NCBI GenBank assembly: GCA_964609125.1
Contig: CAZSQX010000009.1
Coordinates: 33,887-97,886, forward strand
Reading direction: 5' to 3'
Origin: an uncultured bacterium
Lineage (GTDB): Bacteria; Eisenbacteria; RBG-16-71-46
Length of the DNA: 64,000 bases
Numbering within the stretch: position 1 is the stretch's first letter; each line of letters begins with the position of its first letter. The notes under the pieces are model-generated. The model was not told the origin of the DNA and did not search any database. It worked only from the letters and a program-made list of their open reading frames with translations. The position numbers and the translations under genes are program-made. Below, piece by piece: positions 45,626 through 64,000 of the stretch.

Positions 45626-45932
45626 GGCGAGGCGAGGCTCTCCGGGGCAGCGGGACCGCGGGGGAGTCGAACCCCCGCGAGGGCCGGCGGCGTCGGAGAC
45701 GCCCGGGGGATGCGCCGTTCCCGGGGCGCCTCCTCCTGCCGGATGACGCGCGGAAGCTAGCACGCGGGCGGTCCCGCGCGCCAGCATGGCCGGCGCTGCA
45801 ACCCGTTGCGGGAGTGATGCTCACGCGCGTCGCGCCCGGCGGGCGCGCCGCCCCGCGGCGGCGGGACGAAGCCCCGCGAGTCTGCTAGTTTGCGGGTGAT
45901 CCTGTCCGGCCCGCCTGGAGAGCGACTCCCCC

Positions 45933-46625
45933 ATGAAGGTCTCCGACCGCACCTACTTCGTGCTCCGCCGGCTGCACTCGCTCTCCGGCGTGGTCCCGGT
46001 CGGCGTCTTCCTCGTCGAGCACCTGTTCACGAACGCGCGCTCGCTCCAGGGGCCGGCGGCGTTCGACCAGGCCGCCGCCGAGCTGGCGCGCATCCCGTTC
46101 GTGGTCCTGATCGAGGCGTTCGGGATCTGGCTCCCGATCCTGTTCCATCTCGTGCTCGGCATCTTCATCGCCAGCACCTCGAAGGCCAACCTCTCCCGCC
46201 ACGGGAACGAGCGGAACTGGCACTACGTGCTCCAGCGCGCGAGCGGCATCCTGCTCGTGTTCTTCATCCTGTTCCACACCTGGTCCACGCGCTTCGATCA
46301 GGGCTACCTGGAATCGGCGAGCGCGTACGACTTCGTGTACCGCCACCTCGAGAACCCCGCCGTGCTCGCGTTCTACGCGCTCGGGATCCTCGCCGCGAGC
46401 TACCACCTGGGGAACGGGCTCTACGGCTTCGCCGTCCACTGGGGGCTCGTCACCGGACACGGCGCACAGCGGCTGGCGGGGCGCGTCGGGCTCGCGGTGG
46501 GAGTGGCGCTCGCCGCGCTCGGGCTCGCGTCGCTGCTCGGCTTCCGCGGCCTGCGGCTCGATTTCCTGCAGAAGCCGCACGCGCAGGAACACGGCGCCGT
46601 CGTCCTGCAGGGGGGGCGGCGCTGA
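45933..46625 (+). CDS. sdhC: succinate dehydrogenase/fumarate reductase cytochrome b subunit (single 5-TM anchor, type B)
   Basis: 230 aa polytopic with His ligands (LVEHLF..., FHLVLG..., ILFHTWST..., YHLGNGL). Directly precedes sdhA with an ATGA overlap. Confidence 0.8.
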   Translation: MKVSDRTYFVLRRLHSLSGVVPVGVFLVEHLFTNARSLQGPAAFDQAAAELARIPFVVLIEAFGIWLPILFHLVLGIFIASTSKANLSRHGNERNWHYVLQRASGILLVFFILFHTWSTRFDQGYLESASAYDFVYRHLENPAVLAFYALGILAASYHLGNGLYGFAVHWGLVTGHGAQRLAGRVGLAVGVALAALGLASLLGFRGLRLDFLQKPHAQEHGAVVLQGGRR

Positions 46626-48436
46626 TGGCCGCCCCGCGCGTGGCGGTCGTGGGCGGCGGGCTCGCCGGGCTCATGACCACGATCAAGCTCGCCGAGGCGG
46701 GCGTGGCCGTGGACCTGTTCTCGATCGTGCCGGTCAAGCGCTCGCACTCGGTGTGCGCGCAGGGCGGCATCAACGGCGCCGTGAACGTGAAGGGCGAGAA
46801 CGACTCGCCCGAGATCCACTTCACCGACACCTGCCGCGGCGGCGACTTCCTCGCCCACCAGCCGCCCGTGAAGGGCATGTGCTACGCCGCGCCCGGCATC
46901 ATCTACCTGTTCGACCGGATGGGCGTGACGTTCAACCGCACGCCCGAGGGGCTGCTCGACTTCCGCCGCTTCGGCGGCACGCTCCACCACCGCACCGCGT
47001 TCGCCGGCGCCACCACCGGCCAGCAGCTCCTCTACGCGCTCGACGAGCAGGTGCGCCGCCACGAGGCCGGCGGGCTCGTGAAGAAGTACGAGGGCTGGGA
47101 GTTCGTCGGGCTCGTTCGCGACGACTCCGGCACGTGCGTCGGGCTCACCGCGCTCGACCTGCGCGGCATGAAGCCGCGCGCGTTCGCCGCCGACGCGGTC
47201 GTGCTCGCCACCGGCGGGCCGGGGCTCATGTTCGGCCGCAGCACGAACTCGCTCATCAACTCCGGCTCCGCGGCGGCCGCCGCGTACCTGGACGGCGCCG
47301 ACTACGGGAACGGCGAGTTCATCCAGGTCCACCCCACCGCGATCCCCGGCATGGACAAGCTGCGGCTCATGAGCGAATCGGCGCGCGGCGAGGGCGGGCG
47401 CGTGTGGGTGCCGCGGCGGAAGGGCGACGCGCGCAAGCCGCGCGAGATCCCCGAGGCCGAGCGCTGGTACTTCCTCGAGGAGAAGTACCCCAAGTACAAG
47501 AACCTCGTGCCGCGCGACGTGGCGAGCCGCGAGATCCACCAGGTGTGCGTGGAGATGGGGCTCGGCGTGGGCGGCGAGATGGTCGTGTACCTGGACCTCA
47601 CGCACGTGCCGCGCGCCACGCTCATGAAAAAGCTCGAGGGCATCCTCGAGATTTACGAGAAGTTCACGGGCGAGGACCCGTGCGAGGTGCCGATGCGCAT
47701 CTTCCCCGCCGTCCACTATTCCATGGGCGGCCTGTGGGTGGACTACGCGCGCACGAGCGACGGGTTCCTGGACCTGGCGAGCCCGAGGAACCAGGCCACG
47801 AGCGTGCCCGGGCTGTACGCGGTGGGCGAGTGCGACTACCAGTACCACGGCGCCAACCGGCTGGGCGCGAACTCGCTCCTGTCCTGCGTCTACGCCGGGC
47901 AGGTCGCGGGGCCCGCGGTGCTCGCCTACCTCGCGGCTCGGAAGGACGCGGGCGAGCGGGACTCCCCGGCGCTCGCCGCGTCGGAGAGGCGCTGGAGCGG
48001 GCGTTTCACGGAGCTGGCCACGCGCGAGGGGCCCGAGAACCCGTACCGGCTCGCGGACGAGATGGGCCGCTGGATGCTCGAGAACGTCACCATCGTCCGC
48101 CACAACGCGAAGCTCCGCGAGACGGACGACAAGCTGCAGGAGCTGATCGAGCGCTGGGGTCGAGCCAGCGTGCTGGACCACGGCACGTGGGCCAACGCGC
48201 CGCTCTCGTTCCTGAACCAGCTCTGGAACATGCTGCACCTGGCGCGCGTCGTGACGCTGGGCGCGCTCGCGCGCGACGAGAGCCGCGGCGCGCACTACAA
48301 GCCCGAGTTCCCGCGTCGGGACGACGCGAACTGGCTGAAGACCACGGTGGCGAGCCACGCCGAGGCGGGCCCGCGGTTCCGCTACGACCCCGTGGACGTG
48401 TCGCTCTGCAAGCCCGTGGAACGGAGGTACGACTGA
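46625..48436 (+). CDS. sdhA: succinate dehydrogenase flavoprotein subunit
   Basis: MAAPRVAVVGGGLAGL...RSHSVCAQGGINGA (FAD His attachment region)...HYSMGG... Confidence 0.95.
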   Translation: MAAPRVAVVGGGLAGLMTTIKLAEAGVAVDLFSIVPVKRSHSVCAQGGINGAVNVKGENDSPEIHFTDTCRGGDFLAHQPPVKGMCYAAPGIIYLFDRMGVTFNRTPEGLLDFRRFGGTLHHRTAFAGATTGQQLLYALDEQVRRHEAGGLVKKYEGWEFVGLVRDDSGTCVGLTALDLRGMKPRAFAADAVVLATGGPGLMFGRSTNSLINSGSAAAAAYLDGADYGNGEFIQVHPTAIPGMDKLRLMSESARGEGGRVWVPRRKGDARKPREIPEAERWYFLEEKYPKYKNLVPRDVASREIHQVCVEMGLGVGGEMVVYLDLTHVPRATLMKKLEGILEIYEKFTGEDPCEVPMRIFPAVHYSMGGLWVDYARTSDGFLDLASPRNQATSVPGLYAVGECDYQYHGANRLGANSLLSCVYAGQVAGPAVLAYLAARKDAGERDSPALAASERRWSGRFTELATREGPENPYRLADEMGRWMLENVTIVRHNAKLRETDDKLQELIERWGRASVLDHGTWANAPLSFLNQLWNMLHLARVVTLGALARDESRGAHYKPEFPRRDDANWLKTTVASHAEAGPRFRYDPVDVSLCKPVERRYD

Positions 48437-53428: not shown

Positions 53429-53890
53429 TCATGCCGCCTGCACTTCGCGATGGGTTCCCGGGCGCGGCCTGACGCCCGCGGCATCGGTAGCGGCCCGGCT
53501 ACGCATCCGAAGGCCCCGGCGCCCATCCGACCTCCTGGTCCAACGATCCGCACGGGACATGACCTCCCCGATGAACGGCCCCTCCGCGTCGGTGTAGGCG
53601 AGTCGTTCGCCCTGGAGCTGTCCCGCCAGGCCTCGCTTGAACTCCGCGTAGCGAACGCGTTCCTCGGGATGGACGCGCAGGTAGTCGCGGAACAACAGCG
53701 CGAACTGCTCGGCCCAGCTGCCGGCTCGCCTCACGTGGACGTGGGTCCTCCGCGTACCGGCCGGCTCGCGAAAGTGTCGCTTCGTCCGCTCGGAACTGTC
53801 GGGGCGAAACACCAGCCCCAGCCCCTCGATCGGCACGCGATAGGCACCCGCCGGATCGAGCGTGTGGTCATGGTCCGAGGACGATGGCAT
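53429..53890 (-). pseudogene. GrpB-family (UPF0157) C-terminal fragment lacking the N-terminal nucleotidyltransferase region (gene remnant)
   Basis: ...THVHVRRAGSWAEQFALLFRDYLRVHPEERVRYAEFKRGLAGQLQGERLAYTDAEGPFIGEVMSRA matches the GrpB C-terminal half. The N-terminal ~70 aa are absent, and the reading frame overlaps the 3' end of the upstream gene by 23 nt. Confidence 0.4.
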
Positions 53891-54926
53891 CCGCAATTTC
53901 GTAGTGTTCGTCGCCGATGCGGATCCGGTGCATGTCGCCGTCCCTGGTGGCGCGAAGCTCCGGGTAGCCGTCGGCCTGGCTCGTGTCGGCACCGATGGGC
54001 CTGCCCATTCGGAAGTAGATCGTGCGGGTGCGGCCGTCGGGCTTCCTGACGACGACCGTGGCGTAACCCCCACCCGCGCGAGCGACACCGAACTCGCATG
54101 GACCCGTCCCCTGGCCCGCAGCGAACGCGCAGGGCAGCGACCCGCTCGCGTCGAACCTGCCCTGGCCTGCGCGCGACGCGGAGTCGTCCGGGCCCATGGC
54201 CACGCTGCCATCGGGCGAGACCGCGCCCCGCAGGTACTCCGCGGCCACATAGCCCCGCGGGCCTCCGCCGAGTCGCTGCACGTCGCACCACGTGCGGCCC
54301 TGGTCGCGCCGACAGCCGCCGAGATTGTCGAGGATGGCTCCGGGGCGGCACCTCGCGAGAATCCTGGATGAGGTACTCGGCGCTTCTCGCAGGTTCAGCG
54401 TCGCTGTGACCTCCCAGTTGCGCGGCCCGCCGTTCTCGGGGGCCGCCTGCAGGAAGGCGCCGGAGCTCGTGCTGCCGTTGCGCTCCCACACGTAGATGCC
54501 GCCGTCCGCCATGAGACTCAGGTACAGGCGATCGTCCTTCAGCAGGAACGACCGGACGAACCTGGACCGTGCGACGATCTCCTCGTCCATGCTCGGCGGC
54601 GGGCACAGCGCGCGCGTCGCCGCGAGCGGGCCGAACTCGAACCCGCCGCTGGCGGCGCCGCTGTCCGGTGCGGCAGACCAGGTGCCCGTGGCACGGTTGC
54701 AGTTGAGCTGCATCGCGACCTTACCGTCACCGTGCAGCCACAGGGTGTAGAGCGAACCCTCGGCCGGGCGCGTGATGCCCTGCCGATCGTCCATCGACTG
54801 GAACTCGACGAGGCGCCAGTGCGTGCCGGCCAGCGGCGCGGTGGCCGCTTCGGCACCTCGCGACACCGAACCGGCCGCCACGACGAGCAGGGTCAGCGCA
54901 CCAGCGGCCGCAAGTCTGGCCTTCAC
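53868..54926 (-). CDS. secreted protein with META/HslJ-like (DUF306) domain, SH3b-like domain and Cys-containing C-terminal beta domain
   Basis: GTG at 54926 with RBS GGAGGAGG. Signal peptide VKARLAAAGALTLLVVAAGSVSRGAEA. GTHWRLVEFQSMDDRQG...LYLSLMADGGIYVWER (META-like). TATLNLREAPSTSSRILARCRPGAILDNLGGC...WCDVQ (SH3b-like). Confidence 0.55.
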   Translation of the reverse strand: MKARLAAAGALTLLVVAAGSVSRGAEAATAPLAGTHWRLVEFQSMDDRQGITRPAEGSLYTLWLHGDGKVAMQLNCNRATGTWSAAPDSGAASGGFEFGPLAATRALCPPPSMDEEIVARSRFVRSFLLKDDRLYLSLMADGGIYVWERNGSTSSGAFLQAAPENGGPRNWEVTATLNLREAPSTSSRILARCRPGAILDNLGGCRRDQGRTWCDVQRLGGGPRGYVAAEYLRGAVSPDGSVAMGPDDSASRAGQGRFDASGSLPCAFAAGQGTGPCEFGVARAGGGYATVVVRKPDGRTRTIYFRMGRPIGADTSQADGYPELRATRDGDMHRIRIGDEHYEIADAIVLGP

Positions 54927-55038
54927 CTGCGCGTCCTCCTCCGGCACAGGCTCCACAACCGCGGCGGATTCAGCGGCGGCGCGGTACGCTGTGCCCTGCA
55001 TGCCGTTGCCGGGGGCAGCCGGGCATGGCATCCCCCGC

Positions 55039-56130
55039 TCACTTCGTCACCACATACCAGTTGTTCTGGATGTCATGCGCAAGTCGGTGCGTCGTGATCG
55101 AGCGAAACCCCGCCTTCTGCAGGTATTCGCGTGTCTTCTCCTCGCCCCACATGGCACCCAGCCCTTCCCCGCCTTGCGCGAGCGACACCGTCATGCAGTG
55201 CATGCACGAAATGCTGTAAAGGAATGTGCCGATCGGGTGTTCGATGTCCCTGTGCAAGTGGCTCGTGCCGCTGATGTCCTGCATGAGATACACGCCGTCG
55301 GCCTTCAAGGTCCTGTAAATGGCCTTGAGCACGTTGAGCGGCTTGGCTTGGTCGTGTATCGCATCGAAGGTCGTCACGAAATCGAACGCCTCCGGCTCGG
55401 CGGTGGCGTCGAAGTCGCTGAGATCGGCGGCGATGAACTCGACGTTCGTCAGGCCTTCTTTCGCCGCCGCCTCCCGAGCGTACGCGATGGCTTCGCGCGA
55501 GAGATCCATGCCGACGAAGCGGCTGCTCGGATAGAGTGTGGCGAGCCGCGTGAGGATGCGACCCCGGCCGCAGCCAGCGTCGAGCACGCGTATGCCTTTC
55601 TCCAGCCGCTCGGTCAATCCCGGGGCGAGCGGCAGGATGTGCAACTCGAGCGATGACAACACCGACTGGCCGCTATCCTCGGCCATCACCTCGTGGAAAC
55701 GCGGGAACTTCTCGTAGGGCACGCCGCCGCCCTTCCTGAAGCACTCGACGATGTCATCCTCCACACAACCCATCACGGCGATGTATTGCCCGAACACCGC
55801 CATGTTGTCGGCCGCGGCCGCCCGCGTCAGGAACGCCGCATGTTCCGCCGGCAACCAGTAGCGCTTGCCGGCGGGATCGAAGTCGACCACTCCACCGGTC
55901 ACCATCGCCCCAAGCCACTCGCGGACATAACGCTCGTTCAGCCCCGCTCGGGCTGCGATCTCTTCCGAGCGTGCCGGCGACAACCGGCTCATGACATCGA
56001 ACAATCCGGTGCGATGGCCGATGGAAACCATCAGACAAAGAGCACCGTGGTTCAGCGCGGTCAGTACCCTTGCGGCGAACGCCTCCGCCTTCGCCCGATC
56101 GAAAGGAGACTGCGCGTCCTTCACCGACAT
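55039..56130 (-). CDS. class I SAM-dependent methyltransferase with N-terminal helical (winged-helix-like) domain
   Basis: 363 aa from the ATG at 56130 (RBS GGAGGTG). VLDAGCGRGRILTRLATLYPSSRFVGMDLS (motif I GxGxG), ...FDFVTTFDAIHD. Confidence 0.75.
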   Translation of the reverse strand: MSVKDAQSPFDRAKAEAFAARVLTALNHGALCLMVSIGHRTGLFDVMSRLSPARSEEIAARAGLNERYVREWLGAMVTGGVVDFDPAGKRYWLPAEHAAFLTRAAAADNMAVFGQYIAVMGCVEDDIVECFRKGGGVPYEKFPRFHEVMAEDSGQSVLSSLELHILPLAPGLTERLEKGIRVLDAGCGRGRILTRLATLYPSSRFVGMDLSREAIAYAREAAAKEGLTNVEFIAADLSDFDATAEPEAFDFVTTFDAIHDQAKPLNVLKAIYRTLKADGVYLMQDISGTSHLHRDIEHPIGTFLYSISCMHCMTVSLAQGGEGLGAMWGEEKTREYLQKAGFRSITTHRLAHDIQNNWYVVTK

Positions 56131-56330
56131 GACTTCCACCTCCGAGGTCTGGCAGGTCGACCACGCCGCCTGGCGCCACGGTTCAGCGGCGGCGCGAAGC
56201 GCCGCCCCCTGCCTTCCGGCTTTCGCCGCCGATCCTCCCCGGGGCCCCATCGAGCGAACGTGGACGCTGGAGCTTGGCGGGGCCGCGAAGCGGGATCGCC
56301 ACCGCATCTGTAGCCTGGTTCAACGTGTCG

Positions 56331-56788
56331 TCAGGGCGCCCCTCGCAACGCCGAAAGTGCCTTCCCGGGGATCGCGAGCAGGCCCGCATGGTACAGGTCG
56401 TGCTGAGGCGCGCCGTAGAACCGAATATACACCGGGTGCTCCGAACCCGGCTCCTGCGAATGGCGCTCCGCGGGGAAGGCCCGCACGGCATTCTGAAGCT
56501 GCAGATTCAGCGCTTTCGAGGTGCGCCGGCTCTCGCGCCAGGCGTCCGCACCAAACTCCGGAACCGGAGTCCACTCGTCCTCCGGCGGGAGCCGCGCACG
56601 CTCACCACGAACCCGCCGAAGAAGCAGGGGTACCCGCCGGTCATTTGAAGAACGAGCTCCCAAATGCTGTGAGCGACGGCGGTCGGATGTGGTGCCGAGG
56701 CTTCCGCCGACGCACCCGCCAGCACTTCGAGCACCGTAGGCCCGTGCCAGGACTCGCCACGAAAGGCTCGCCCGATCTGGGCTGCCAT
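56331..56788 (-). pseudogene. third DinB_2-family gene, apparently frameshifted
   Basis: The N-terminal half is in one frame (MAAQIGRAFRGESWHGPTVLEVLAGASAEASAPHPTAVAHSIWELVLQMTGG..., from the ATG at 56788). The C-terminal half is in another frame (...LQLQNAVRAFPAERHSQEPGSEHPVYIRFYGAPQHDLYHAGLLAI..., track ORF 56331..56663). Combined length of 152 aa fits the family. Confidence 0.4.
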
Positions 56789-57003
56789 GTTCTCAAGATT
56801 CGGGGGAATCGTCTCCCATTCGGCCGCGTCGGCCCAACGCCCAACAACAACGGCGGCGCTCACCGCCGTTCGCGCCGAGCGGTTGTCGGGCGGCGCCGTC
56901 GGGACTCCGAGCACTCCGCGATGCCGGCGATGCCAGGTCGGCGGGCCCGGTCCGGGTGGAGAAGCTCGGAGTGGACCCGTCCGGCGTCCCCGCGTGCACG
57001 ACG

Positions 57004-58272
57004 TCACGGTCCGAGCCGCCGTTCCGCGGACCGCGCGTGTGCCTCGAGTCCTTCGAGGCGACCCAGCCACGCCGCGTCCTCGACCAGCTCCCGGGCGCCG
57101 GCGGCATCGTCGATCGCCAGCCACGTGCGCACGCGCAGGAACGTCAGCACCGAAAGACCGCCGGCGGAGCGAGCCGCGCCCCCGGTGGGCAGGGCGTGGT
57201 TGGGCCCCGCGCCGTAGTCTCCCAGCACCTCCGCGGCCGCGCTGCCGACGAACAGCGCGCCGTAGTGACGCAGCCGTGGCGCCACGCACGCGGCGTCCGC
57301 GACGTGAAGCTCCAGATGCTCCGGCGCCAGGAGGTCGCACGCGGCGACGCCCTCGGCCAGGTCGCGCACCACGACGGCTCCCCCGTTGGCCAAAGCCGCG
57401 CGGGCGATGACGGCGGTCGGCAGCGTTTCGAGCTGGCGCAGCAGCTCGGCCGAGACCTCCTCGGCGATCGCGGCGCCGACGCTCACGAGGACCGGCACCG
57501 CGCTCGGATCGTGCTCGGCCTGCGCGAGGAGATCCGCCGCGACCATTCCCGCGTCGGCCGTCGCGTCGGCCAGCACCACGAGCTCGGAAGGTCCAGCCAG
57601 GGCATCGATGGCGACGTGCCCCGCGACCCGCTGCTTGGCGGCGGTCACGTACGCGTTGCCCGGGCCCACGACGGCGTCGCATCGCGGCACCGGGCCGGCA
57701 CCGAAGGCGAGCGCCGCGATGGCCTGCGCGCCGCCGGCCGCGAGGAATCCGTCCGCGTTCGCCAGCGCGGCGGCGGCGAGCGTGAGCGGCGCAGGCCGCG
57801 GACTGGCCACCCACACCTCCAGGACGCCCGCCTCACGCGCCGTGAGCGCGGTCATGAGCACGGAGGACGGAAGCGGGTAACGGCCGCCGGGGGCGTAGCA
57901 CCCCGCTCGCTCCACGGGGGCGATGAAGTGGCCGGCCCTGCCGCCCGGGATCGTTGTCTCGAACGTCCCGAGGGTCGCGCGCTGTCCGCGCGCGAACGCG
58001 CGAATGCGGTGCGCGATCCGCTCCAGCCGTTCGCGGTCCCCTGGCTCCAGCGCCGCGAGCGCCGATGCGAGGGCCTCGCGCGGCAGGACGAGCGGTGCAC
58101 CGGGCGCCAGGTCGCCCAGCCTCTCCGAGTGCTCCCTGAGCGCGACCTCGCCGCGCACACGCACGTCGCGCACGATCTCGGCCGCGGTCTCCTGCACCTC
58201 CGAGGGCGTGTGGCCGCCCATCCGGGCCGCCATCTCCCGTGCCGTTCGGCGCGGGAAGCCGTCGGTCATCAC
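57004..58272 (-). CDS. hisD: histidinol dehydrogenase
   Basis: ...GGAQAIAALAFGAGPVPRCDAVVGPGNAYVTAAKQRV...AQAEHDPSAVPVLV... GTG at 58272 overlaps the upstream stop. Confidence 0.93.
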   Translation of the reverse strand: MMTDGFPRRTAREMAARMGGHTPSEVQETAAEIVRDVRVRGEVALREHSERLGDLAPGAPLVLPREALASALAALEPGDRERLERIAHRIRAFARGQRATLGTFETTIPGGRAGHFIAPVERAGCYAPGGRYPLPSSVLMTALTAREAGVLEVWVASPRPAPLTLAAAALANADGFLAAGGAQAIAALAFGAGPVPRCDAVVGPGNAYVTAAKQRVAGHVAIDALAGPSELVVLADATADAGMVAADLLAQAEHDPSAVPVLVSVGAAIAEEVSAELLRQLETLPTAVIARAALANGGAVVVRDLAEGVAACDLLAPEHLELHVADAACVAPRLRHYGALFVGSAAAEVLGDYGAGPNHALPTGGAARSAGGLSVLTFLRVRTWLAIDDAAGARELVEDAAWLGRLEGLEAHARSAERRLGP

Positions 58273-59522
58273 TTCGGCTCCATCGGCCGGCGCGTCACCG
58301 CGAGCCGCCGGCGTCCAAGCTCAGACTCGACATCGGCGAGGGTCGCGCCCGCCCGCGCGATCGCCGCCAGCACCAGGTAGAGTACGTCGGCGGCTTCGTG
58401 CACCACGTCGTCGCGCGTGGCGGCGCGCGCCAGCTCGGCGGCCTCCTCGGCGAGCTTCGCCTCCAGCAGGCCGGGCCTGGTCAGCAGCCGGACCGTCCCG
58501 GACCCGGTATCGCCGCCGGCTCGGCGCGCGGCGATGACGCGCTCGAGCGAGCCAAGATCGAAGCGGTCGCGAAAGCAGCTGCGCGTGCGGCGGTGGCAGA
58601 AGCCCGCTCCCTGCTGGCGCACGACGAATCGCAGCGCGTCGCGGTCGCAATCCGCGTCCACGCCCAGCAGTCGCTGGGTGTTCCCCGACGATTCACCCTT
58701 GACCCAGATGGCGGAGCGCGATCGCGACCAATAGATGCCTCGGCGCTCGGCCACCGCGCGGCGCAGCGAAGCCGCGCTGCTCCATGCGAGACCCAGCATC
58801 CTCCCCGATTCGTCGCAGACGACGGTGGGCCACAGTCCGTCCGGTCCCGCGCGAAGCACCGCGGCGACGGCATCCCCAAGGTCCATCCGCCCGGTGTAGA
58901 GCGCCATCCCCACCTGCGCATCGGCGCCGAGGCGATCGAGCTCGGCGATCTCGCCGGGCGAGGTGATGCCTCCGGCGGCGGTGACGCGGGCGTCGCCTGC
59001 CGCGGTTACCGCGGCGCGTACGAGGCTCGCGTCGAACCCTTCCATCCCTCCTTCGCGCTCCACCTGGGTGAGGAGAAAGCCGCCCACATGCGGCGCGAGC
59101 GAGCGGATGACATCGAGCGCCGGCTGCCCGGTCTTCGCGCGCCAGCCGTCCACCACGACCTCGCCGCGCACCGAGTCCACGGCGGCGATCACGCGATCGC
59201 GGGGCAGGGCGCCGCAGAGCTCGGGCGACGCCGCGGTGCCGACCATGATCCGCTCGGCGCCGGCGTCGAGCCACGCGCGCGCGGTCTCGAGGTCGCGAAT
59301 GCCGCCCCCTACGCGACACGCCGCTCGACGCACCATCGTCCGGATGATGGCGGCGTTCGATCCGCGGCCCAGCGCCGCATCGAGGTCCACCACGGCGACC
59401 TCGCCCGCCACCGCGAACTGCTCGAGGCGCTCCAGCGGGTCCCCACCGTCGAGCACGAGCTCGCGCCCCTGCCGCAACTGCACCGCGCGTCCGTTCATCA
59501 GGTCGATGCTGGGGACGATCAT
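58269..59522 (-). CDS. hisA/hisIE: fused HisA (ProFAR isomerase) + HisIE (PR-AMP cyclohydrolase / PR-ATP pyrophosphatase)
   Basis: N-terminal [19 protein letters not shown]...[27 protein letters not shown] (HisA TIM-barrel). The C-terminal ~170 aa contain ...[49 protein letters not shown] (HisI) and ...[36 protein letters not shown] (HisE). Confidence 0.85.
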
Positions 59523-60922
59523 CGCCGCACCCGCACACCGCGGCCGGCCAGATCCGCCTTGATCGCCGCCACCGTGTCATCGCCGTCGTGGAACACGGAG
59601 GCGGCCAGCACCGCTTCCGCCCCCGCCGCAAGCGCCTCGGCCACGTGCGCTCGCGTGCCGATGCCCCCCGAGGCGATCACCGGCACGGTGACCGCGCCGC
59701 GCACGGCGCGCACCAGCTCGACATCGCAGCCGGCACGCGTGCCGTCGCGGTCCCAGCTCGTGAGCAGGATCTCGCCCGCGCCGAGCGCCGCCCCGTCCCG
59801 CGCCCACTCGACCGCGTCCCGTCCCGCGCGCTCCCGGCCGCCCATGACCAGCACCTCCCAGCCCCTGCCGGAGCGGCGCGCGTCCACGGCGAGCACCACG
59901 CACTGGCGCCCGAACTCGCGCGCCAGCTCGTCGAGCAGTTGCGGACGTGCCACCGCGGCGCTGTTCACGCTCACCTTGTCCGCGCCGGCGGCCAGGAGGG
60001 CGCGCGCGTCCTCCACCGACCGAACGCCGCCACCGGCCGTGAGCGGGATGCCGAGGGCCGCCCGCACCCGGTGCACCGTCTCCACCTGCGTCGCGCGCGA
60101 CGCGGGCGAGGCGGCGATGTCGAGCACGACGAGCTCGTCGGCGCCCTGCGCTTCGTAGATCGCCGCCTGCTCGGCGGGATCGCCGGCGTCGCGCAGACCG
60201 GTGAACTGCACGCCCTTCACGACGCGTCCATCCTGCACGTCCAGGCAGGGCACGAGTCGCACGGCGAGCCCGGTCCCACGGGGCGGCGGCGCCGGCGCGG
60301 CGCCGGGCGCCGGGTCCACACGGAGCCCTCCCGCCACGAGCCAGCGTCGCACCAGCTCGCTTCCCGCGGGGCCGGACAGCTCGGGATGGAACTGGCACGC
60401 GAGCAGCGCGCCGCGTTCCAGCGCGGCGACGAACCTCGCACCGTGCGTCGTCCAGGCCGCCGCCCACCCGGGCGGCGCGTCCCGCAGCGCGTACGAGTTG
60501 GCGAAGGCGGCTTCCATCGTCGTGACGTGCCGGCACGACGCGTCCGGATCCACCCGGTTCCACCCCAGGTGTGGCACGCGCACGCCGGCCGGCAGGCGCC
60601 GGCACGTGCCGGGCAGCAAGCCGAGGCCGGCGATCCCCGGACTCTCCTCGCTCGCCTCGCACAACAGCTGGAGCCCGAGGCAGATGGCGAGCAGGGGCGT
60701 TCCCTCGAGCGCGGCGTCACGCACGGCGTCGTCGAGTCCCTTCGCGCGCAGCATGGCCATCCCCGCGCCGAACGCCCCCACACCCGGCAGCACGAGGCGC
60801 CGGGCCCGGCGCACCACGTCCGCCTCGGCGGACACCGTGGTCCGAACACCCAGCCGCGCGAACGCCCCGCGAACCGATGCGAGATTCGCCACGCCGGAAT
60901 CCACGATCACGACGTCGGTCAC
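59519..60922 (-). CDS. hisHF: fused imidazole glycerol phosphate synthase HisH (glutaminase) + HisF (cyclase)
   Basis: N-terminal [25 protein letters not shown]...ICLGLQLL (GATase catalytic Cys)...FHPE. Pro/Ala linker. C-terminal [22 protein letters not shown]...[16 protein letters not shown]...VIASGGIG (HisF). 467 aa. Confidence 0.88.
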
Positions 60923-61506
60923 AGCGTTCCCTTGGTGGACGGCACGTCGTCGAATCCGGATGGCGCCACCGCCTGGCGAAGCGCGAGCGCGACGGCCTTG
61001 AACGCCGCCTCGGCGCGATGGTGGTCGTTGTCGCCCTTGAGCACATCGGCGTGCAGCGTGAGCCGCGCGGCGGTCGCGAACGAGCGGAGCACGTGCGGGA
61101 CGTTTTCCGCCGAGAGCGTGCCGAGGGCGCCGCGCGTCAGGCCGAGCTGGACGTCCGCGAACGGCCGCCCCGAGAGATCCACCGCCACGCGCGCCAGCGC
61201 CTCGTCGAGCGGGGCCAGCGCCCAGCCGAACCGCGCGATGCCGCGGCGGTCGCCGAGCGCCCGATCCAGCGCCTCACCGAGCGCGAGCGCGGCGTCTTCC
61301 GCGGAGTGATGATCGTCCACGTGCAGGTCGCCGTCGCACCGCAACGTGAGATCGAGCCGCGCGTGCCGCGCAAGGGCGGTCAGCAGGTGGTCGAGAAAGC
61401 CGATGCCGGTGCGCACGTCAGCGCGCCCTCCGCCGTCGAGGTCGAGCTCGACGACCACGGTCGTCTCCGCCGTCCGGCGCTCCACCCGCGCGCGTCGCGC
61501 GTTCAT
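60919..61506 (-). CDS. hisB: imidazoleglycerol-phosphate dehydratase (monofunctional)
   Basis: [27 protein letters not shown]...[18 protein letters not shown]...[15 protein letters not shown]. 195 aa. No HAD phosphatase domain. Confidence 0.9.
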
Positions 61507-63236
61507 GGAAGCACCTCCAGGAGGTCCGACAGCCGATCGAGCACCAGCGTCGCGCCGGCCGCGGTGAGAGCGCGGGCCGCCGCGTCGCGCGATTCCCCGG
61601 GGGCGATGGCGCCGAGCGGCAGGACGCCGGCGGCGCGGGCCGCGCTCGCGTCGTCGGGCGTGTCGCCGACCATCCATCCCCGCGTTGCGCCGAGTCGCCG
61701 GAGCGCCAGCAGGACCGGCGCAGGATCCGGCTTGTTGGGCGCGTCCTCGAGCGCCACGACCGTGCGGACCAGGTCGCGGATCCCGGCGCGGTCCAGAAAC
61801 CATTCCGCCTCGGCGCACGGCCGGCCGGTGACGATGCCGAGCGGAAGCCTGGCGGCGAGCGCCGCGAGCACATCGCGCGGGACGATGAGCCGCTCCGATT
61901 CGCGCAGCCCCGGCGTCCCGTCGGTGCCCAGGTAGCGCGCCTGGTAGCGGGCCGTGACTTCCTCCAGGGAACGCTCCACGCCGTGCGCGGCGAGCAGCCG
62001 CCGGGTCAGCACCCAGTCGTTGCTCGCGTCCCCGCGCAGCGTGGCCTGGAACACTTCATTGCGGCTTACGTCCACGCCGAAGTCGCGGGCCGTGGCAAGC
62101 ACGCAGGCGCGGTAGGAGACCTCGACGTCCGCCAGCACCCCGTCCAGGTCGAGCAGCAGCGCCTCCGGGGCCAGGGCCAGGTCGAACGCGGCCGTCAGGT
62201 GCGCGAACGCCTCCGCGTCCCCGGGAAGCGTGACGCGCAGCCCGGTGGCAGCGGCCGGCCGATCGGGAAAGTCGCGGACATGGATGCCCTGTGCGGCGAG
62301 CGCGGCGTGCACGAAGGCCGCGCGTCGCCCGAACTCGGCGTACACGAAGTTGGCCTGCGATCGCCGCGGCGCGAGGCCGCGCGCGGCAAGCAGCTCGGAC
62401 AGCGCGGCGCGCTCGCGGCGCACCTGCGCGACGTGGGCCGCCATCCCCGCGTCGCCGCGCTCGAGCTGCATCGCCGCGAATGCGACGGACGGTCCCGCGA
62501 CGGAATACGGCCCGCCGGCCGCGCGCAGCGTCGCGATCACTTCGGCCGGTCCCAGCAGGTAACCCACCCGGCACCCCGCAAGTCCACGCGCTTTGGAGAA
62601 CGTGCGCGCCACGACCACGTTCGGGAGCGCGAGCGCGGCCGCCGTGAGGTCCTCGTCCGCATACTCGACGTACGCGTGGTCGAGGAGGATCAGGGCGTCG
62701 GGCGCGGCGGAAGCGAGGCGCCGGACATCGTCGATCGCGGCGACCTCGCCGGTCGGGTTGTTCGGGCTCACGATGGCGACGAGCGCGGTGCGCTCCTCCA
62801 GGCGCTCGAGCATCGCCGCGGTCGGGAACGGGCCTGCCGCCCACGGCACCCGAACAAGCGTGCCGCCGGCCAGTGCCGCGTAGCGGTCGAGCATCTCGAA
62901 GCTGGGGTCGGGCACGAGCATCGTCGCGCCCGCCGAAAGGAACGCCCGACAGCATCGGTCGATGGCCTCGTCGGCGCCGGCCGTGACCAGCACCCGCGCG
63001 GGTTCGACGCCATTCCGATGCGCGAGCGCCGCCTCGAGCGCCGCCGCGTCGGGATAACGCCGCAGCAGCTCCGGCCCGGCGGCGCGCAGCGCGTCCACCA
63101 TGAGGGCGAGTGCGGGTACGGGTCCCTCGTTGCCGTCGAGCTTGAGCCGGATGGCGCCCGGTGGCGGCTGCCGCCGACGATAGGCCAGGGCGGAAGGCAC
63201 GCGGGACAGCGGACCGGCTTTCAGGGAAGGACTCAT
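61503..63236 (-). CDS. hisC: histidinol-phosphate aminotransferase fused to a C-terminal HAD-family hydrolase domain (putative histidinol-phosphatase)
   Basis: N-terminal PLP aminotransferase (...IRLKLDGNEGPVP..., TFSKARGLAGCRVGY (PLP Lys)). C-terminal ~210 aa LLLDLDGVLADVE (HAD motif I DxDGV)...GIVTGRP...WMVGDTPDD (motif III/IV). Confidence 0.8.
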   Translation of the reverse strand: MSPSLKAGPLSRVPSALAYRRRQPPPGAIRLKLDGNEGPVPALALMVDALRAAGPELLRRYPDAAALEAALAHRNGVEPARVLVTAGADEAIDRCCRAFLSAGATMLVPDPSFEMLDRYAALAGGTLVRVPWAAGPFPTAAMLERLEERTALVAIVSPNNPTGEVAAIDDVRRLASAAPDALILLDHAYVEYADEDLTAAALALPNVVVARTFSKARGLAGCRVGYLLGPAEVIATLRAAGGPYSVAGPSVAFAAMQLERGDAGMAAHVAQVRRERAALSELLAARGLAPRRSQANFVYAEFGRRAAFVHAALAAQGIHVRDFPDRPAAATGLRVTLPGDAEAFAHLTAAFDLALAPEALLLDLDGVLADVEVSYRACVLATARDFGVDVSRNEVFQATLRGDASNDWVLTRRLLAAHGVERSLEEVTARYQARYLGTDGTPGLRESERLIVPRDVLAALAARLPLGIVTGRPCAEAEWFLDRAGIRDLVRTVVALEDAPNKPDPAPVLLALRRLGATRGWMVGDTPDDASAARAAGVLPLGAIAPGESRDAAARALTAAGATLVLDRLSDLLEVLP

Positions 63237-64000
63237 GGGACGATCTGCGCGAGCGCGGACACGACCACGTCGGTGCCCCCCGCGGCCTTGATCGCGGGGA
63301 TCACCTGCGGCAGGGCGTCGCGCGGCACGGCCGCCTTCACGGCGAAGCTCCCGTTGCCGTACAGCGGGGAGACCGTTGGCCGGCGCATGCACGGCAGCAC
63401 CGCGACGACGCGATCGAGACACTCCGAGGACGCATTGACCTCGACCATCACGCGCCGCCGGGCCTCGAGCACGCTGGCGAGCACGAGCCTGAGGTCCTCG
63501 ATGCGCCGGCGCTTCGCGGGATGGGTCCATGCGGCCGGGCTTGCATACAGGCGCGTGGATGAGGTCATCACCGTGTCGAGGATCGTGAGCCCATTCGCCT
63601 GGAGGGTGGCCCCCGTCGCGGTGTTGTCGACGATGACATCCGCGTCCTCCGGCGGGAACACTTCCGTGGCGCCGTAGGAACGCACGCACTCCGCGTCGAG
63701 CCCGCGGCTGGCGATCCACGCCCGCGTCAGCTGCTCGTACTCGGAGGCGACCACGAGATGCCGCTCCGGGAGCCGGCCTTCGCGGAGCAGTGTGTCGGGC
63801 GCGGCCGCCACCACGCGGACGAGCTCGAGGCCGGTGTCGAGCACCTCCACCACGTCCGCGCGGAGTTCGGCCACCCAGTCCGCTCCGGCGAAGCCCACGT
63901 CGCGGCTGCCCAACATGAGCATCTCCACGATGTTCTGCGGCTTGAGGACCTTGGCCTCGGTTGCCTCGAGGCGCACGTGGGGCCGGTAGCCGCGGGCGGT
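63233..64000 (-). CDS. hisG: ATP phosphoribosyltransferase, long form with C-terminal regulatory domain (5' end beyond window)
   Basis: ...LMLGSRDVGFAGADWV...DVIVDNTATGATLQANGL... plus C-terminal ...NASSECLDRVVAVLPCMRRPTVSPLYGNGSFAVKAAV. The reading frame stays open to the window end. Confidence 0.85.
   Translation of the reverse strand, partial: TARGYRPHVRLEATEAKVLKPQNIVEMLMLGSRDVGFAGADWVAELRADVVEVLDTGLELVRVVAAAPDTLLREGRLPERHLVVASEYEQLTRAWIASRGLDAECVRSYGATEVFPPEDADVIVDNTATGATLQANGLTILDTVMTSSTRLYASPAAWTHPAKRRRIEDLRLVLASVLEARRRVMVEVNASSECLDRVVAVLPCMRRPTVSPLYGNGSFAVKAAVPRDALPQVIPAIKAAGGTDVVVSALAQIVP

What the first reader, a model, noticed from the sequence alone, without database searches (positions are those of the whole stretch)
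57004..64000. Compact histidine operon with three gene fusions (hisHF, hisA-hisIE, hisC-HAD) and monofunctional hisB
hisG-hisC-hisB-hisHF-hisAIE-hisD are transcribed head-to-tail with overlapping stop/start codons. HisH and HisF are fused into one 467-aa protein, as in fungal HIS7, with a Pro/Ala linker. HisA carries HisI and HisE domains at its C-terminus (417 aa). HisC has a ~210-aa C-terminal HAD hydrolase domain (DxDGV...GDTPDD) while HisB is IGPD-only. The missing histidinol-phosphatase step is therefore most plausibly supplied by the HisC-HAD fusion. This would channel the HisC product directly to dephosphorylation. The HisC-HAD and HisA-HisIE combinations are not the textbook arrangements.
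Basis: seen in the sequence. Interest (0 to 1): 0.55.

Follow-up and report, generated by a model that had tools for sequence, protein, structure and literature searches.

The report
Compact histidine operon with fused enzymes
This soil-type bacterium packs all ten steps of histidine synthesis into six overlapping genes. One gene joins the aminotransferase to a phosphatase domain that very probably supplies the pathway step whose enzyme is most often still unidentified in bacterial genomes.

Summary
On the minus strand, 57004 to the window end at 64000, lie hisG (cut by the window end), hisC~HAD, hisB (dehydratase only), hisH~F, hisA~I~E and hisD. Every junction is a 4-nt ATGA or GTGA overlap, and no reading frame is interrupted. 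Domain searches confirm all three fusions.

The HAD domain is a C1-capped subfamily-IA phosphatase of the function-unknown family TIGR01548, with all four catalytic motifs intact. It is very probably the histidinol-phosphate phosphatase (HolPase). In 80 genomes from about ten phyla it occupies the same slot, hisG-[hisC~]HAD-hisB-hisH-hisF-hisA~I~E-hisD. The same family is also fused to other his enzymes in eukaryotes: HAD~IGPD, HisD~HAD~IGPD, HisD~HisC~HAD~IGPD and HisA~I~E~D~C~HAD.

HisC~HAD and HisA~I~E define a widespread operon type that I did not find in the his-fusion literature. HisH~F is largely a Gemmatimonadota trait, of prokaryotic sequence type rather than HIS7-like. Substrate channelling is untested, and no experiment supports the phosphatase assignment.

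Novelty: a new variant of a known kind. Interest about 0.6, because HolPase is the most common gap in amino-acid pathway annotation.

The parts
63233..64000 (-). hisG, long-form ATP phosphoribosyltransferase (step 1). The 5' end lies beyond the window.
   Evidence: Pfam HisG 115.7 bits plus HisG_C 69.4 bits. TIGR00070 aligns from model position 35. The frame stays open to base 64000.
61503..63236 (-). hisC~HAD, 577 aa: histidinol-phosphate aminotransferase fused to a HAD phosphatase (steps 7 and 8). ATG at 63236 overlaps the hisG stop (ATGA).
   Evidence: More than 1850 homologues; the top 120 are all 532-586 aa with the same two domains. AF2 full-length model: pLDDT 89.5, pTM 0.87.
62181..63236 (-). 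HisC domain (residues 1-352). Contains SPNNPTG, LDHAY and the PLP-lysine motif TFSKARG.
   Evidence: Aminotran_1_2 152.7 bits. Best NCBIfam match is TIGR01141 hisC, 219 bits, below the equivalog cut-off of 276.55. Motifs were read in the translation.
61506..62180 (-). HAD domain (residues 353-577), the proposed histidinol-phosphate phosphatase. Motif I D363-x-D365-G-V; motif II T470; motif III K502; motif IV G524-D525-T-P-D528-D529. A helical C1 cap lies between motifs I and II.
   Evidence: HAD_2 54.3 bits and Hydrolase 53 bits. TIGR01548 130.9 bits. Motifs are invariant in 81 sequences. AF2 model pLDDT 95.7. Foldseek returns C1-capped HAD-IA phosphatases.
60919..61506 (-). hisB, monofunctional imidazoleglycerol-phosphate dehydratase (step 6), 195 aa.
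   Evidence: IGPD 198.6 bits and no other domain. NF002111 248 bits, above its cut-off of 231, aligned 2-195 to 2-194/194.
59519..60922 (-). hisH~F, 467 aa: imidazole glycerol phosphate synthase (step 5) as one chain.
   Evidence: TIGR01855 hisH 166 bits and TIGR00735 hisF 304 bits, both above cut-off. Catalytic Cys (ICLGLQ), HPE, and HisF CLDV / VDA were read in the translation.
60329..60922 (-). HisH glutaminase domain (residues 1-198).
   Evidence: GATase at 5-195.
60269..60328 (-). Pro/Ala-rich linker (about residues 199-218).
   Evidence: Sequence. In relatives the linkers are 15-60 aa long and unconserved.
59522..60268 (-). HisF cyclase domain (residues 219-467).
   Evidence: His_biosynth 255.8 bits. 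PDB: HisF-LUCA 302 bits, T. thermophilus HisF 278 bits, yeast HIS7 180 bits.
58269..59522 (-). hisA~I~E, 417 aa: ProFAR isomerase, PR-AMP cyclohydrolase and PR-ATP diphosphatase (steps 4, 3 and 2).
   Evidence: About 7600 homologues; the top 120 are all 395-429 aa with the three domains.
58857..59522 (-). HisA domain (residues 1-222).
   Evidence: His_biosynth 144 bits. TIGR00007 138 bits, below its cut-off of 228.95, so this is a divergent HisA. Best PDB matches are actinobacterial HisA at 78 bits.
58563..58841 (-). HisI domain (residues 228-320), with its three Cys (DCD, FCH, SCF).
   Evidence: PRA-CH 89.5 bits. Cysteines were read in the translation.
58272..58562 (-). HisE domain (residues 321-417).
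   Evidence: PRA-PH 43.8 bits. TIGR03188 51.1 bits, above its cut-off of 42.7.
57004..58272 (-). hisD, histidinol dehydrogenase (steps 9-10), 422 aa. GTG at 58272 overlaps the hisA~I~E stop.
   Evidence: Histidinol_dh 411 bits. TIGR00069 392 bits, above cut-off.
56854..56868 (-). Terminator-like GC hairpin followed by a T-rich tail, 135 nt downstream of the hisD stop.
   Evidence: Consensus scan: 1 site found against 0.4 expected from shuffles, so the support is weak.

Best explanation
This is the complete histidine biosynthesis operon of a Gemmatimonadales bacterium. Six translationally coupled genes encode all ten reactions.
- HisG (long form): step 1.
- HisA~I~E: steps 2 (E), 3 (I) and 4 (A).
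- HisH~F: step 5.
- HisB: step 6.
- HisC~HAD: steps 7 and 8.
- HisD: steps 9-10.

Proposed role of the HAD domain. The C-terminal HAD domain of HisC is a Mg-dependent aspartyl-phosphatase of subfamily IA, with a helical C1 cap. It belongs to the TIGR01548-type family. I propose it hydrolyses L-histidinol phosphate, the product of the HisC domain on the same chain, to histidinol. It therefore replaces the HisB-N, PHP-type or IMPase-type phosphatases used by other organisms.

Consequences of the fusions. They fix a 1:1 stoichiometry of consecutive or interacting activities.
- HisC runs into the HAD through only about 3 residues, from helix 341-355 to strand 359-362, and the model is confident there. 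The two active sites are probably held in a fixed geometry.
- The HisH~F linker, by contrast, is long and variable.

Shown versus inferred.
- Shown: gene order, domain content, intact catalytic motifs, conservation of the arrangement across phyla, and occurrence of the same HAD family in several other his fusions.
- Inferred: the substrate of the HAD domain, operon-level co-transcription, and the rigid domain packing.
- Not shown: channelling.
For: 1. Domain content and intact frames.
2. All four HAD catalytic motifs are invariant in the window sequence and 80 relatives. The AF2 model has pLDDT 95.7 and the C1-capped HAD-IA fold.
3. A genome scan with the HAD alignment returned 80 loci. They come from Gemmatimonadota, Planctomycetota (Phycisphaerae), Myxococcota, Acidobacteriota (Thermoanaerobaculia), Krumholzibacteriia, Sumerlaeota, Methylomirabilota, Acidimicrobiia and gamma-proteobacterial MAGs.
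4. In these loci the HAD always lies between hisG/hisC and hisB, in the order hisG-hisC~HAD-hisB-hisH-hisF-hisA~I~E-hisD. It is fused to HisC in 69 of 80, stands alone in 5, and is cut by a contig end in 6.
5. Stand-alone versions sit in the identical slot (L001, L003, L085). They retain vestiges of the HisC C-terminus.
6. The same HAD family (542 clusters at E<=1e-30) also occurs in four other architectures:
   - HAD~IGPD: Lagenidium P0479, and P0493.
   - HisD~HAD~IGPD: P0485 and P0507.
   - HisD~HisC~HAD~IGPD: P0501.
   - HisA~I~E~HisD~HisC~HAD: Protostelium P0407.
   Histidinol phosphate is the only pathway intermediate that needs dephosphorylation (established pathway knowledge).
7. No other phosphatase-type domain is present in the operon, and HisB lacks the N-terminal phosphatase.
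8. A characterised precedent exists. The archaeal HAD HolPase nmHisN is a C1-capped HAD encoded between hisC and hisB (PMC10804674).
9. The full-length AF2 model has pTM 0.87, with junction pLDDT about 95.
Against: - No experimental data exist for any member of this family.
- The window's HAD scores 130.9 bits against TIGR01548, just below the 140.2 cut-off. That family has no assigned function.
- The rest of the genome could not be inspected, so a second HolPase (PHP, IMPase or PA0335-like) elsewhere is not excluded.
- Two cap residues are relaxed in Gemmatimonadota. The cap Lys, conserved in 95% of non-Gemmatimonadota members, is T399 here. The Tyr of the SYR motif is Gln in some Gemmatimonadales.
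- HisC and HisA score below the NCBIfam equivalog cut-offs, so both are divergent.
- A pTM value is not evidence of channelling.
Confidence: 0.85

Rival explanations
1. The HAD domain is a housekeeping phosphatase, for example a phosphoglycolate or sugar-phosphate phosphatase. It became attached to HisC by chance, and the real histidinol-phosphatase is encoded elsewhere in the genome.
For: After TIGR01548, the next-best NCBIfam matches are phosphoglycolate phosphatase models (58 bits and lower, all far below their cut-offs). The closest solved structures are generic HAD-IA enzymes of various specificities at about 20% identity. The rest of the genome was not available.
Against: A chance attachment would not be conserved in the same operon slot across about ten phyla. 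Nor would it recur as HAD~IGPD, HisD~HAD~IGPD and A~I~E~D~C~HAD fusions in eukaryotes. Where the HAD stands alone, it is still inside the his operon.
Confidence: 0.07
2. The HAD domain is a catalytically dead or regulatory module, for example a ligand sensor or an oligomerisation domain for HisC, rather than an enzyme.
For: Two cap residues that are conserved elsewhere in the family are relaxed in Gemmatimonadota.
Against: The nucleophile Asp, the general acid Asp, the motif II Thr, the motif III Lys and the motif IV acidic residues are invariant in all 81 sequences, including every Gemmatimonadota member. Loss of catalysis normally erodes these residues first.
Confidence: 0.03
3. The fusions in this window are assembly or sequencing artefacts, such as lost stop codons or frameshifts, and the genes are in fact separate.
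For: High-GC metagenome assemblies do contain frameshifts. Some related loci show split versions that look like errors: L002 against L001, L014 with AI+E, and L034 and L062 with a HisC fragment in another frame.
Against: The same fused lengths are found in hundreds to thousands of independent sequences. HisH~F is fused in 13 of 14 other Gemmatimonadota assemblies, with lineage-specific linkers. The alignments run collinearly through the junctions.
Confidence: 0.01
4. The phosphatase acts on histidinol phosphate but also has a second physiological substrate, such as phosphoserine. This would resemble what was once considered for Desulfovibrio HolPase candidates.
For: HAD-IA enzymes are often promiscuous. 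Phosphoserine and histidinol phosphate share the R-CH(NH3+)-CH2-OPO3 skeleton (PMC5764234).
Against: Nothing in the sequence or its context speaks to this. nmHisN was specific for HolP among ten substrates (PMC10804674).
Confidence: 0.04

Closest known systems
Archaeal HAD-type histidinol-phosphate phosphatases nmHisN (Nmar_1556, Nitrosopumilus maritimus) and toHisN (Thermococcus onnurineus). Source: Kinateder et al. 2024, PMC10804674.
   Same: A HAD fold with a single helical C1 cap inserted after motif I. The gene sits in the his cluster between hisC and hisB. The window has a Tyr-Arg pair shortly after motif I (SYR), the same pair the paper reports for its Euryarchaeota and delta-proteobacterial clusters.
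   Different: Here the domain is covalently fused to HisC and is bacterial. The published fingerprint (Y24-D25-K56-E64) could not be aligned, because no nmHisN sequence was obtainable. The Lys I tentatively equate with K56 is Thr in the window and non-Lys throughout Gemmatimonadota.
HisB (HisNB) of E. coli and Salmonella: bifunctional histidinol-phosphatase / IGP dehydratase.
   Same: A HAD-superfamily HolPase fused to another his enzyme inside the his operon. Eukaryotic relatives of the window's HAD are even fused to IGPD in the same N-to-C order (P0479, P0493).
   Different: HisB-N is a capless HAD-IIIA enzyme related to GmhB (PMC9798254). The window's HAD is a C1-capped HAD-IA and scores only 44.9 bits on TIGR01656, whose cut-off is 84.15. 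The fusion partner here is HisC, the preceding step, not HisB. The window's HisB is monofunctional.
TIGR01548 (HAD-SF-IA-hyp1), an NCBIfam/TIGRFAM 'hypothetical equivalog' with no assigned function.
   Same: It is the best family match: 130.9 bits over the whole core and cap. Close relatives P0190 and P0188 pass the cut-off, and JGI and NCBI name the stand-alone relatives 'TIGR01548 family'.
   Different: The window's domain falls 9 bits short of the curated cut-off. The family carries no functional annotation, so membership says nothing about function.
Eukaryotic HisHF: yeast HIS7 and plant HISN4.
   Same: The same domain order, glutaminase then cyclase, in one polypeptide catalysing step 5.
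   Different: The window's protein is 467 aa against about 550 aa. Its HisF half is much closer to prokaryotic HisF (302 and 278 bits) than to yeast HIS7 (180 bits, aligned in two stretches). Fused forms arise repeatedly among split relatives and carry unrelated linkers. It is therefore an independent fusion. It is also not the plant-like delta-proteobacterial HisHF discussed by Fani et al. 2007 (PMC1963479).
Amoebozoan his polyproteins: Acanthamoeba HisH~F~A~I~E~D~G (PMC6029752) and Protostelium nocturnum P0407, HisA~I~E~D~C~HAD.
   Same: The A~I~E and C~HAD junctions are the same. The window's HisA~I~E is 49% identical to P0407 over all 417 residues with 4 gaps. HisC~HAD is 35% identical over 572 residues and collinear through the junction. 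The order HF-AIE-D matches the operon.
   Different: In the bacterium these are separate, translationally coupled genes. The eukaryotic proteins join further units. The direction of transfer is unknown. P0407 comes from a transcriptome assembly.
MtlD of Acinetobacter baumannii: mannitol-1-phosphate dehydrogenase fused to a HAD phosphatase.
   Same: A C1-capped HAD-IA phosphatase domain fused to the enzyme that makes its phosphorylated substrate. It is among the top structural matches (7ocu and related entries).
   Different: Unrelated pathway and about 19% identity. The resemblance is one of design only.

Membership tests
HAD superfamily phosphatase | Motif I DxDx[TV], carrying the nucleophile and the general acid Asp. 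| tested here: met
   D363-L-D365-G-V. Invariant in 81 sequences.
HAD superfamily phosphatase | Motif II Thr/Ser, motif III Lys, and motif IV acidic residues (GDxxxD/DD). | tested here: met
   T470 (VTGR), K502 (KPDP) and G524-D525-T-P-D528-D529. Invariant or nearly so.
HAD subfamily IA (C1 cap) | An alpha-helical cap module inserted between motifs I and II. | tested here: met
   The AF2 model (pLDDT 95.7) has helices at 25-35, 42-50, 57-67 and 74-86 between strand 9-12 and strand 116-119. The best Foldseek matches are C1-capped HAD-IA enzymes, TM 0.65-0.76. This rests on a predicted structure, not a solved one.
TIGR01548 (HAD-SF-IA-hyp1) | Whole-protein score at or above the curated cut-off of 140.2 bits. 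| tested here: not met
   130.9 bits for the isolated domain and 127.8 bits within the full protein. Relatives P0190 (141.5) and P0188 (147) pass. The window's clade sits at the edge of the model.
nmHisN/toHisN-type archaeal HolPase | Cap fingerprint Y24-D25(R)-K56(R)-E64(D) (PMC10804674). | not testable with these tools
   No nmHisN or toHisN sequence could be obtained, and the paper's supplement is not held. By eye, SYR fits Y-R and the invariant D407 of NDW could be E64/D64. The residue 8 positions before D407 is T399, not Lys. This mapping is my inference only.
nmHisN/toHisN-type archaeal HolPase | Encoded within the his cluster, next to hisC and hisB. | tested here: met
   Window gene order and 80 related loci.
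HisB-N (enterobacterial HAD-IIIA HolPase) | Capless HAD-IIIA core matching TIGR01656 at or above 84.15 bits, fused N-terminally to IGPD. | tested here: not met
   TIGR01656 gives 44.9 bits. A C1 cap is present. The window's HisB has no N-terminal extension.
PHP-type (HisK/HisJ) or IMPase-type (HisN) HolPase | A PHP or inositol-monophosphatase domain. | tested here: not met
   No such Pfam domain occurs in any of the six operon products. The rest of the genome was not available.
Histidinol-phosphate aminotransferase HisC | Class I/II aminotransferase fold with the PLP lysine, and hisC equivalog score. | tested here: inconclusive
   Aminotran_1_2 scores 152.7 bits, and the SK lysine, NPTG and DxAY motifs are present. 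TIGR01141 hisC is the best match at 219 bits but below its cut-off of 276.55. The assignment rests on operon context and collinearity with his polyproteins.
Eukaryotic HIS7/HISN4-type HisHF | HisH and HisF in one chain, in the order H then F. | tested here: met
Eukaryotic HIS7/HISN4-type HisHF | Sequence affinity to, and insertions shared with, the eukaryotic bifunctional proteins (Fani 2007). | tested here: not met
   Yeast HIS7 (1jvn) scores 180 bits in two stretches, against 278-302 bits for prokaryotic-type HisF. The protein is 467 aa against 555 aa. The NJ tree places the fused forms among split bacterial relatives.
Bifunctional HisIE | PRA-CH followed by PRA-PH in one chain. | tested here: met
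   PRA-CH at 245-317 and PRA-PH at 325-405. NF002747 HisIE scores 123.6 bits, below its cut-off of 187. The unit is here preceded by HisA.

The most novel reading that the evidence does not exclude
The TIGR01548-type HAD is a further, independently recruited lineage of histidinol-phosphate phosphatase. It would fill the 'missing HisN' gap for Gemmatimonadota, Phycisphaerae, Myxococcota, Thermoanaerobaculia and several candidate phyla, and also for oomycetes and Amoebozoa.

In addition, the operon type hisG-hisC~HAD-hisB-hisH-hisF-hisA~I~E-hisD would share its HisA~I~E and HisC~HAD fusion junctions by descent with the giant eukaryotic his polyproteins (Protostelium A~I~E~D~C~HAD, Acanthamoeba H~F~A~I~E~D~G). 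Pre-fused his genes would then have crossed between bacteria and eukaryotes. The HAD~IGPD proteins of oomycetes would be a convergent copy of the enterobacterial HisNB design.
Probability: 0.5. Interest if true: 0.7.

Novelty: new variant of a known kind. Interest (0 to 1): 0.6.

Why it matters
Histidinol-phosphate phosphatase is the one step of histidine synthesis served by unrelated enzymes in different lineages, and it is the step most often missing from genome annotation. It was the most common low-confidence step in GapMind, affecting 28% of 148 prototrophs (PMC7311316). It is unannotated in about 32% of histidine-producing organisms in KEGG (PMC10804674).

The fusion seen here, with its conserved operon slot and its recurrence in other his fusions, gives a specific and cheaply testable candidate for several large, mostly uncultured phyla and for some protists. 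Current pipelines name these proteins only 'aminotransferase', 'TIGR01548 family hydrolase', 'phosphoribosyl-ATP diphosphatase' or 'IGPD'. Metabolic reconstructions of these organisms will therefore wrongly show gaps at steps 3, 4 and 8.

The finding also adds hisA and hisC to the list of his genes known to take part in fusions. It points to a shared origin of bacterial and amoebozoan fused his genes.

Tried and rejected
1. Direct comparison with the characterised archaeal HolPases nmHisN and toHisN. The fingerprint comparison is therefore only a by-eye mapping.

2. I suspected that the acidic 340-aa relatives (P0188, P0195) were haloarchaeal and would bridge to the Euryarchaeota cluster of Kinateder et al. 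The context shows a Gram-negative bacterium (Omp85, OmpH) and no his genes nearby. Idea dropped.

3. PDB sequence and fold searches for a close solved homologue of the HAD domain returned only generic HAD-IA enzymes at about 20% identity. They give no information on specificity.

4. Six literature searches found no description of a HisC~HAD or bacterial HisA~I~E fusion. This library lacks most subscription journals, so absence is not proof.

5. The short ORFs downstream of hisD (56331-56788) looked to me like a frameshifted DinB-like gene. Pfam finds nothing in either piece, so this is not claimed.

6. HisH~F as a relative of fungal or plant HIS7 was rejected on scores and the tree.

7. Whether the genome lacks other HolPase types could not be checked, because only 64 kb is available.

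Full report
**What is in the window**

The region 57004-64000 has about 75% G+C. It carries six head-to-tail genes on the minus strand:
- hisG, 63233 to beyond 64000.
- hisC~HAD, 61503-63236, 577 aa.
- hisB, 60919-61506, 195 aa.
- hisH~F, 59519-60922, 467 aa.
- hisA~I~E, 58269-59522, 417 aa.
- hisD, 57004-58272, 422 aa.

Each stop codon overlaps the next start by four bases (ATGA or GTGA), the classic signature of translational coupling. hisG is cut by the window end. Its match to TIGR00070 begins at model position 35, so 30-35 residues are missing. A weak terminator-like hairpin lies 135 nt after hisD.

The closest named relatives of these proteins are Gemmatimonadales MAG proteins at 82-88% identity. 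The window therefore comes from a member of the Gemmatimonadota.

**Domain content**

- HisC~HAD: Aminotran_1_2 at 58-346, followed by a HAD hydrolase at 358-538.
- HisB: IGPD only, aligned end to end with 194-aa HisB models.
- HisH~F: GATase at 5-195 and His_biosynth at 222-448. The hisH and hisF equivalogs are both above cut-off.
- HisA~I~E: His_biosynth at 1-213, PRA-CH at 245-317 and PRA-PH at 325-405.
- HisD and long-form HisG are ordinary.

The catalytic signatures can be read directly in the translations:
- HisH: Cys and H-P-E.
- HisF and HisA: the two Asp.
- HisI: three Cys.
- HisE: the acidic helices.
- HisC: the SK lysine.
- IGPD: the two DxHH motifs.
- HisD: QAEHD.

HisC and HisA are divergent, scoring below their NCBIfam equivalog cut-offs.

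**The fusions are real**

They are not assembly errors.
- HisC~HAD has more than 1850 homologues. The best 120 are all 532-586 aa with both domains.
- HisA~I~E has about 7600 homologues. The best 120 are all 395-429 aa with three domains.
- HisH~F is fused in 13 of 14 other Gemmatimonadota assemblies.

**What the HAD domain is**

It has all four HAD motifs: D363-x-D365-G-V, T470, K502 and G524-D525-T-P-D528-D529. These are invariant across the window sequence and 80 relatives.

An AlphaFold2 model (pLDDT 95.7) shows a Rossmannoid core with a four-helix C1 cap inserted after motif I, which is the subfamily IA layout. The nearest solved structures are generic HAD-IA phosphatases at about 20% identity, so they say nothing about substrate.

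The best curated family is TIGR01548, a 'hypothetical equivalog' with no function. The window scores 130.9 bits against a cut-off of 140.2, and close relatives pass. The domain is not the enterobacterial HisB-N type: TIGR01656 gives 44.9 bits against 84.15, and a cap is present.

**Why it is very probably the histidinol-phosphate phosphatase**

*A conserved operon slot.* A scan of one genome per species with an alignment of the HAD domain returned 80 loci; at least 296 relatives exist. I mapped the ten his domains onto stop-to-stop ORFs of these loci.
- Almost every locus reads hisG - hisC~HAD - hisB - hisH - hisF - hisA~I~E - hisD, on one strand.
- The taxa are Gemmatimonadota, Planctomycetota (mainly Phycisphaerae), Myxococcota and other 'delta-proteobacterial' MAGs, and Acidobacteriota (Thermoanaerobaculia). 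Also represented are Krumholzibacteriia, Sumerlaeota, Methylomirabilota, Acidimicrobiia and two gamma-proteobacterial MAGs.
- The HAD is fused to HisC in 69 loci, cut by a contig end in 6, and separate in 5. In two of those five, a HisC fragment lies upstream in another frame.

*Stand-alone copies in the same slot.* Where the HAD is a separate gene, it still sits between hisG and hisB (L001, L003, L085).
- These stand-alone proteins keep a vestige of the HisC C-terminus. P0187 aligns to window residues 274-577 and P0133 to 338-577.
- The stand-alone Longimicrobiales copy nests inside the fused Gemmatimonadota clade.
- They therefore look like secondary truncations of a fused ancestor.

*Recurrence in other his fusions.* An exhaustive HMMER search found 542 clusters (at 50% identity) with E<=1e-30. 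Beyond the dominant HisC~HAD form, the same HAD occurs in these architectures:

| Architecture | Proteins | Source |
|---|---|---|
| HAD~IGPD | P0479; P0493 | Lagenidium giganteum (oomycete), named 'IGPD' by UniRef; JGI |
| HisD~HAD~IGPD | P0485, P0507 | marine eukaryote transcriptome |
| HisD~HisC~HAD~IGPD | P0501 | ENA contig |
| HisA~I~E~HisD~HisC~HAD | P0407 | Protostelium nocturnum (Amoebozoa) |

*Pathway logic.* A phosphatase that is repeatedly welded to HisC, HisD and HisB has only one plausible substrate. Histidinol phosphate is the sole intermediate that must be dephosphorylated.

*A characterised precedent.* The archaeal HolPase nmHisN is likewise a C1-capped HAD encoded between hisC and hisB (PMC10804674).

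I put the probability of this assignment at about 0.85. What remains open is that no member has been assayed and that the rest of this genome could not be searched for another HolPase.

**An unexplained detail**

Two cap residues are well conserved elsewhere in the family but relaxed in Gemmatimonadota.
- The Lys eight residues before the invariant Asp of the NNDW motif is K in 95% of the other 65 sequences. In the window it is T399.
- The Tyr of the SYR motif is Gln in some Gemmatimonadales.

Glu446 and Trp479 are, conversely, specific to Gemmatimonadota. Kinateder et al. define nmHisN by Y24, D25 (R in their Euryarchaeota and delta-proteobacterial clusters), K56 and E64. The window's S-Y-R and N-D-W would fit Y, R and E/D. 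I could not obtain an nmHisN sequence, however, so this mapping is unverified and membership of that family is untested.

**How the three fusions differ**

*HisC~HAD and HisA~I~E.* These two define the operon type and are found in all the phyla listed. A~I~E is fused in 61 loci; the remaining loci are cut or frameshifted.

*HisH~F.* This is mostly a Gemmatimonadota character: 13 of 14 loci, against 2 of 24 in Planctomycetota and 1 of 19 in Myxococcota.
- In a neighbour-joining tree of the HisF domain, the Gemmatimonadota fused forms make one clade.
- The three other fused forms sit among split relatives.
- The linkers are 15-60 residues long and unrelated.
- The operon has hisH directly followed by hisF, so loss of one stop codon is enough to fuse them, and this evidently happened several times.
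- The HisF half is prokaryotic in sequence: 302 bits to reconstructed HisF-LUCA and 278 bits to Thermus HisF, against 180 bits to yeast HIS7. The resemblance to HIS7 is convergent.
- This also differs from the plant-like HisHF reported from two delta-proteobacteria (PMC1963479).

*Junction geometry.* The junctions differ physically.
- In the full-length AF2 model (pLDDT 89.5, pTM 0.87), the last HisC helix (341-355) runs into the first HAD strand (359-362) through three residues, at pLDDT about 95. This suggests a fixed arrangement.
- The HisH~F linker looks flexible.
- Neither observation demonstrates channelling. Functional stand-alone HADs in the same slot show that the fusion is not required.

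**Link to eukaryotes**

The window's HisA~I~E aligns with the N-terminal 420 residues of the Protostelium polyprotein at 49% identity with four gaps, straight through both domain junctions. HisC~HAD aligns with its C-terminal 560 residues at 35%, again through the junction.

Acanthamoeba has a PCR-verified HisH~F~A~I~E~D~G protein (PMC6029752) whose order HF-AIE-D matches the operon. Some bacterial relatives have gone further along the same path: HisF~A~I~E in L013 and HisA~I~E~D in L080. In a rough NJ tree, the six eukaryotic HADs form one clade among bacterial sequences.

The junctions thus appear to be homologous between bacteria and eukaryotes, which implies transfer of already-fused genes. 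The direction is not resolved, the trees carry no support values, and P0407 comes from a transcriptome.

**Comparison with the literature**

Reviews of his gene fusions list hisA/hisF elongation, hisIE, hisNB, hisHF and hisIED (PMC1963479). They name hisD, N, B, H, F, I and E as the fusion-prone genes (PMC10138114). Neither hisA nor hisC appears.

Six full-text searches found no description of HisC~HAD or of a bacterial HisA~I~E. The only paper mentioning TIGR01548 is unrelated.

Pipelines label these proteins 'histidinol-phosphate aminotransferase', 'aminotransferase class I/II', 'TIGR01548 family hydrolase' or 'phosphoribosyl-ATP diphosphatase'. Steps 3, 4 and 8 therefore go unrecorded. The library lacks most subscription journals, so prior description elsewhere cannot be excluded.

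**Verdict**

- The kind of thing is known: a his operon, his gene fusions, and a HAD-type HolPase.
- Three aspects are a new variant: the particular phosphatase lineage, its partner HisC, and the HisA~I~E unit.
- These features are widespread rather than a curiosity of this genome.
- Interest is moderate to good, because HolPase is the most frequent unresolved step in amino-acid pathway annotation (PMC7311316, PMC10804674), and this candidate can be tested by simple complementation.

Noticed in passing
L013:10926-12935 and L080:11785-14364: Relatives carry still larger fusions along the same operon. L013, a delta-proteobacterial MAG, has HisF~A~I~E in one ORF. L080, a Phycisphaeraceae MAG, has HisA~I~E~D in one ORF. 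These are based on stop-to-stop ORFs in single assemblies.
   Followed up: partly
P0407 (Protostelium nocturnum, 1501 aa); P0479 (Lagenidium giganteum, 464 aa); P0507 and P0485; P0501: Eukaryotic or eukaryote-like his polyproteins contain the same HAD family: A~I~E~D~C~HAD, HAD~IGPD, D~HAD~IGPD and D~C~HAD~IGPD. The HAD~IGPD form may explain why TIGR01548 members were historically labelled 'imidazoleglycerol-phosphate dehydratase' (my recollection of the TIGRFAM comment, not checked here).
   Followed up: partly
window 62040-62042 (T399) and 62112-62114 (Y375); alignment: The cap Lys, conserved in 95% of non-Gemmatimonadota HADs, is replaced by V, I, M, T or R throughout Gemmatimonadota. The SYR tyrosine is Gln in some Gemmatimonadales. 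All catalytic motifs remain invariant. No explanation yet.
   Followed up: partly
window 56331-56788 (-): Just downstream of hisD and the terminator-like hairpin lie two overlapping short ORFs in different frames (93 aa and 110 aa). They look like one gene broken by a frameshift. Neither piece has a Pfam match.
   Followed up: partly
window 55039-56307 (-) and 53868-55031 (-): The next genes downstream are an Rv2258c-like winged-HTH plus SAM-methyltransferase protein and a META plus SH3_3 domain protein. Both are unrelated to histidine synthesis and mark the end of the operon.
   Followed up: yes
window 42938-45787 (-) and 45890-48436 (+): A 949-aa radical SAM protein (Radical_SAM_N2, Radical_SAM, DUF2344). 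Also an SdhA/FrdA-type flavoprotein whose longest ORF has about 250 extra N-terminal residues, probably an over-called start.
   Followed up: no
L055 (Gemmatimonadales MAG): This is the only Gemmatimonadota locus with separate hisH and hisF. Its HisF and HAD group with Myxococcota and Planctomycetota sequences rather than with other Gemmatimonadota in the NJ trees. Possible causes are operon transfer or a mis-binned contig.
   Followed up: no
L084:7001-8023 (P0188, 340 aa): A member of the same HAD family with a 120-aa acidic N-terminal extension that resembles the HisC C-terminal subdomain. It lies outside any his cluster, next to Omp85/OmpH genes. Its role there is unknown.
   Followed up: partly
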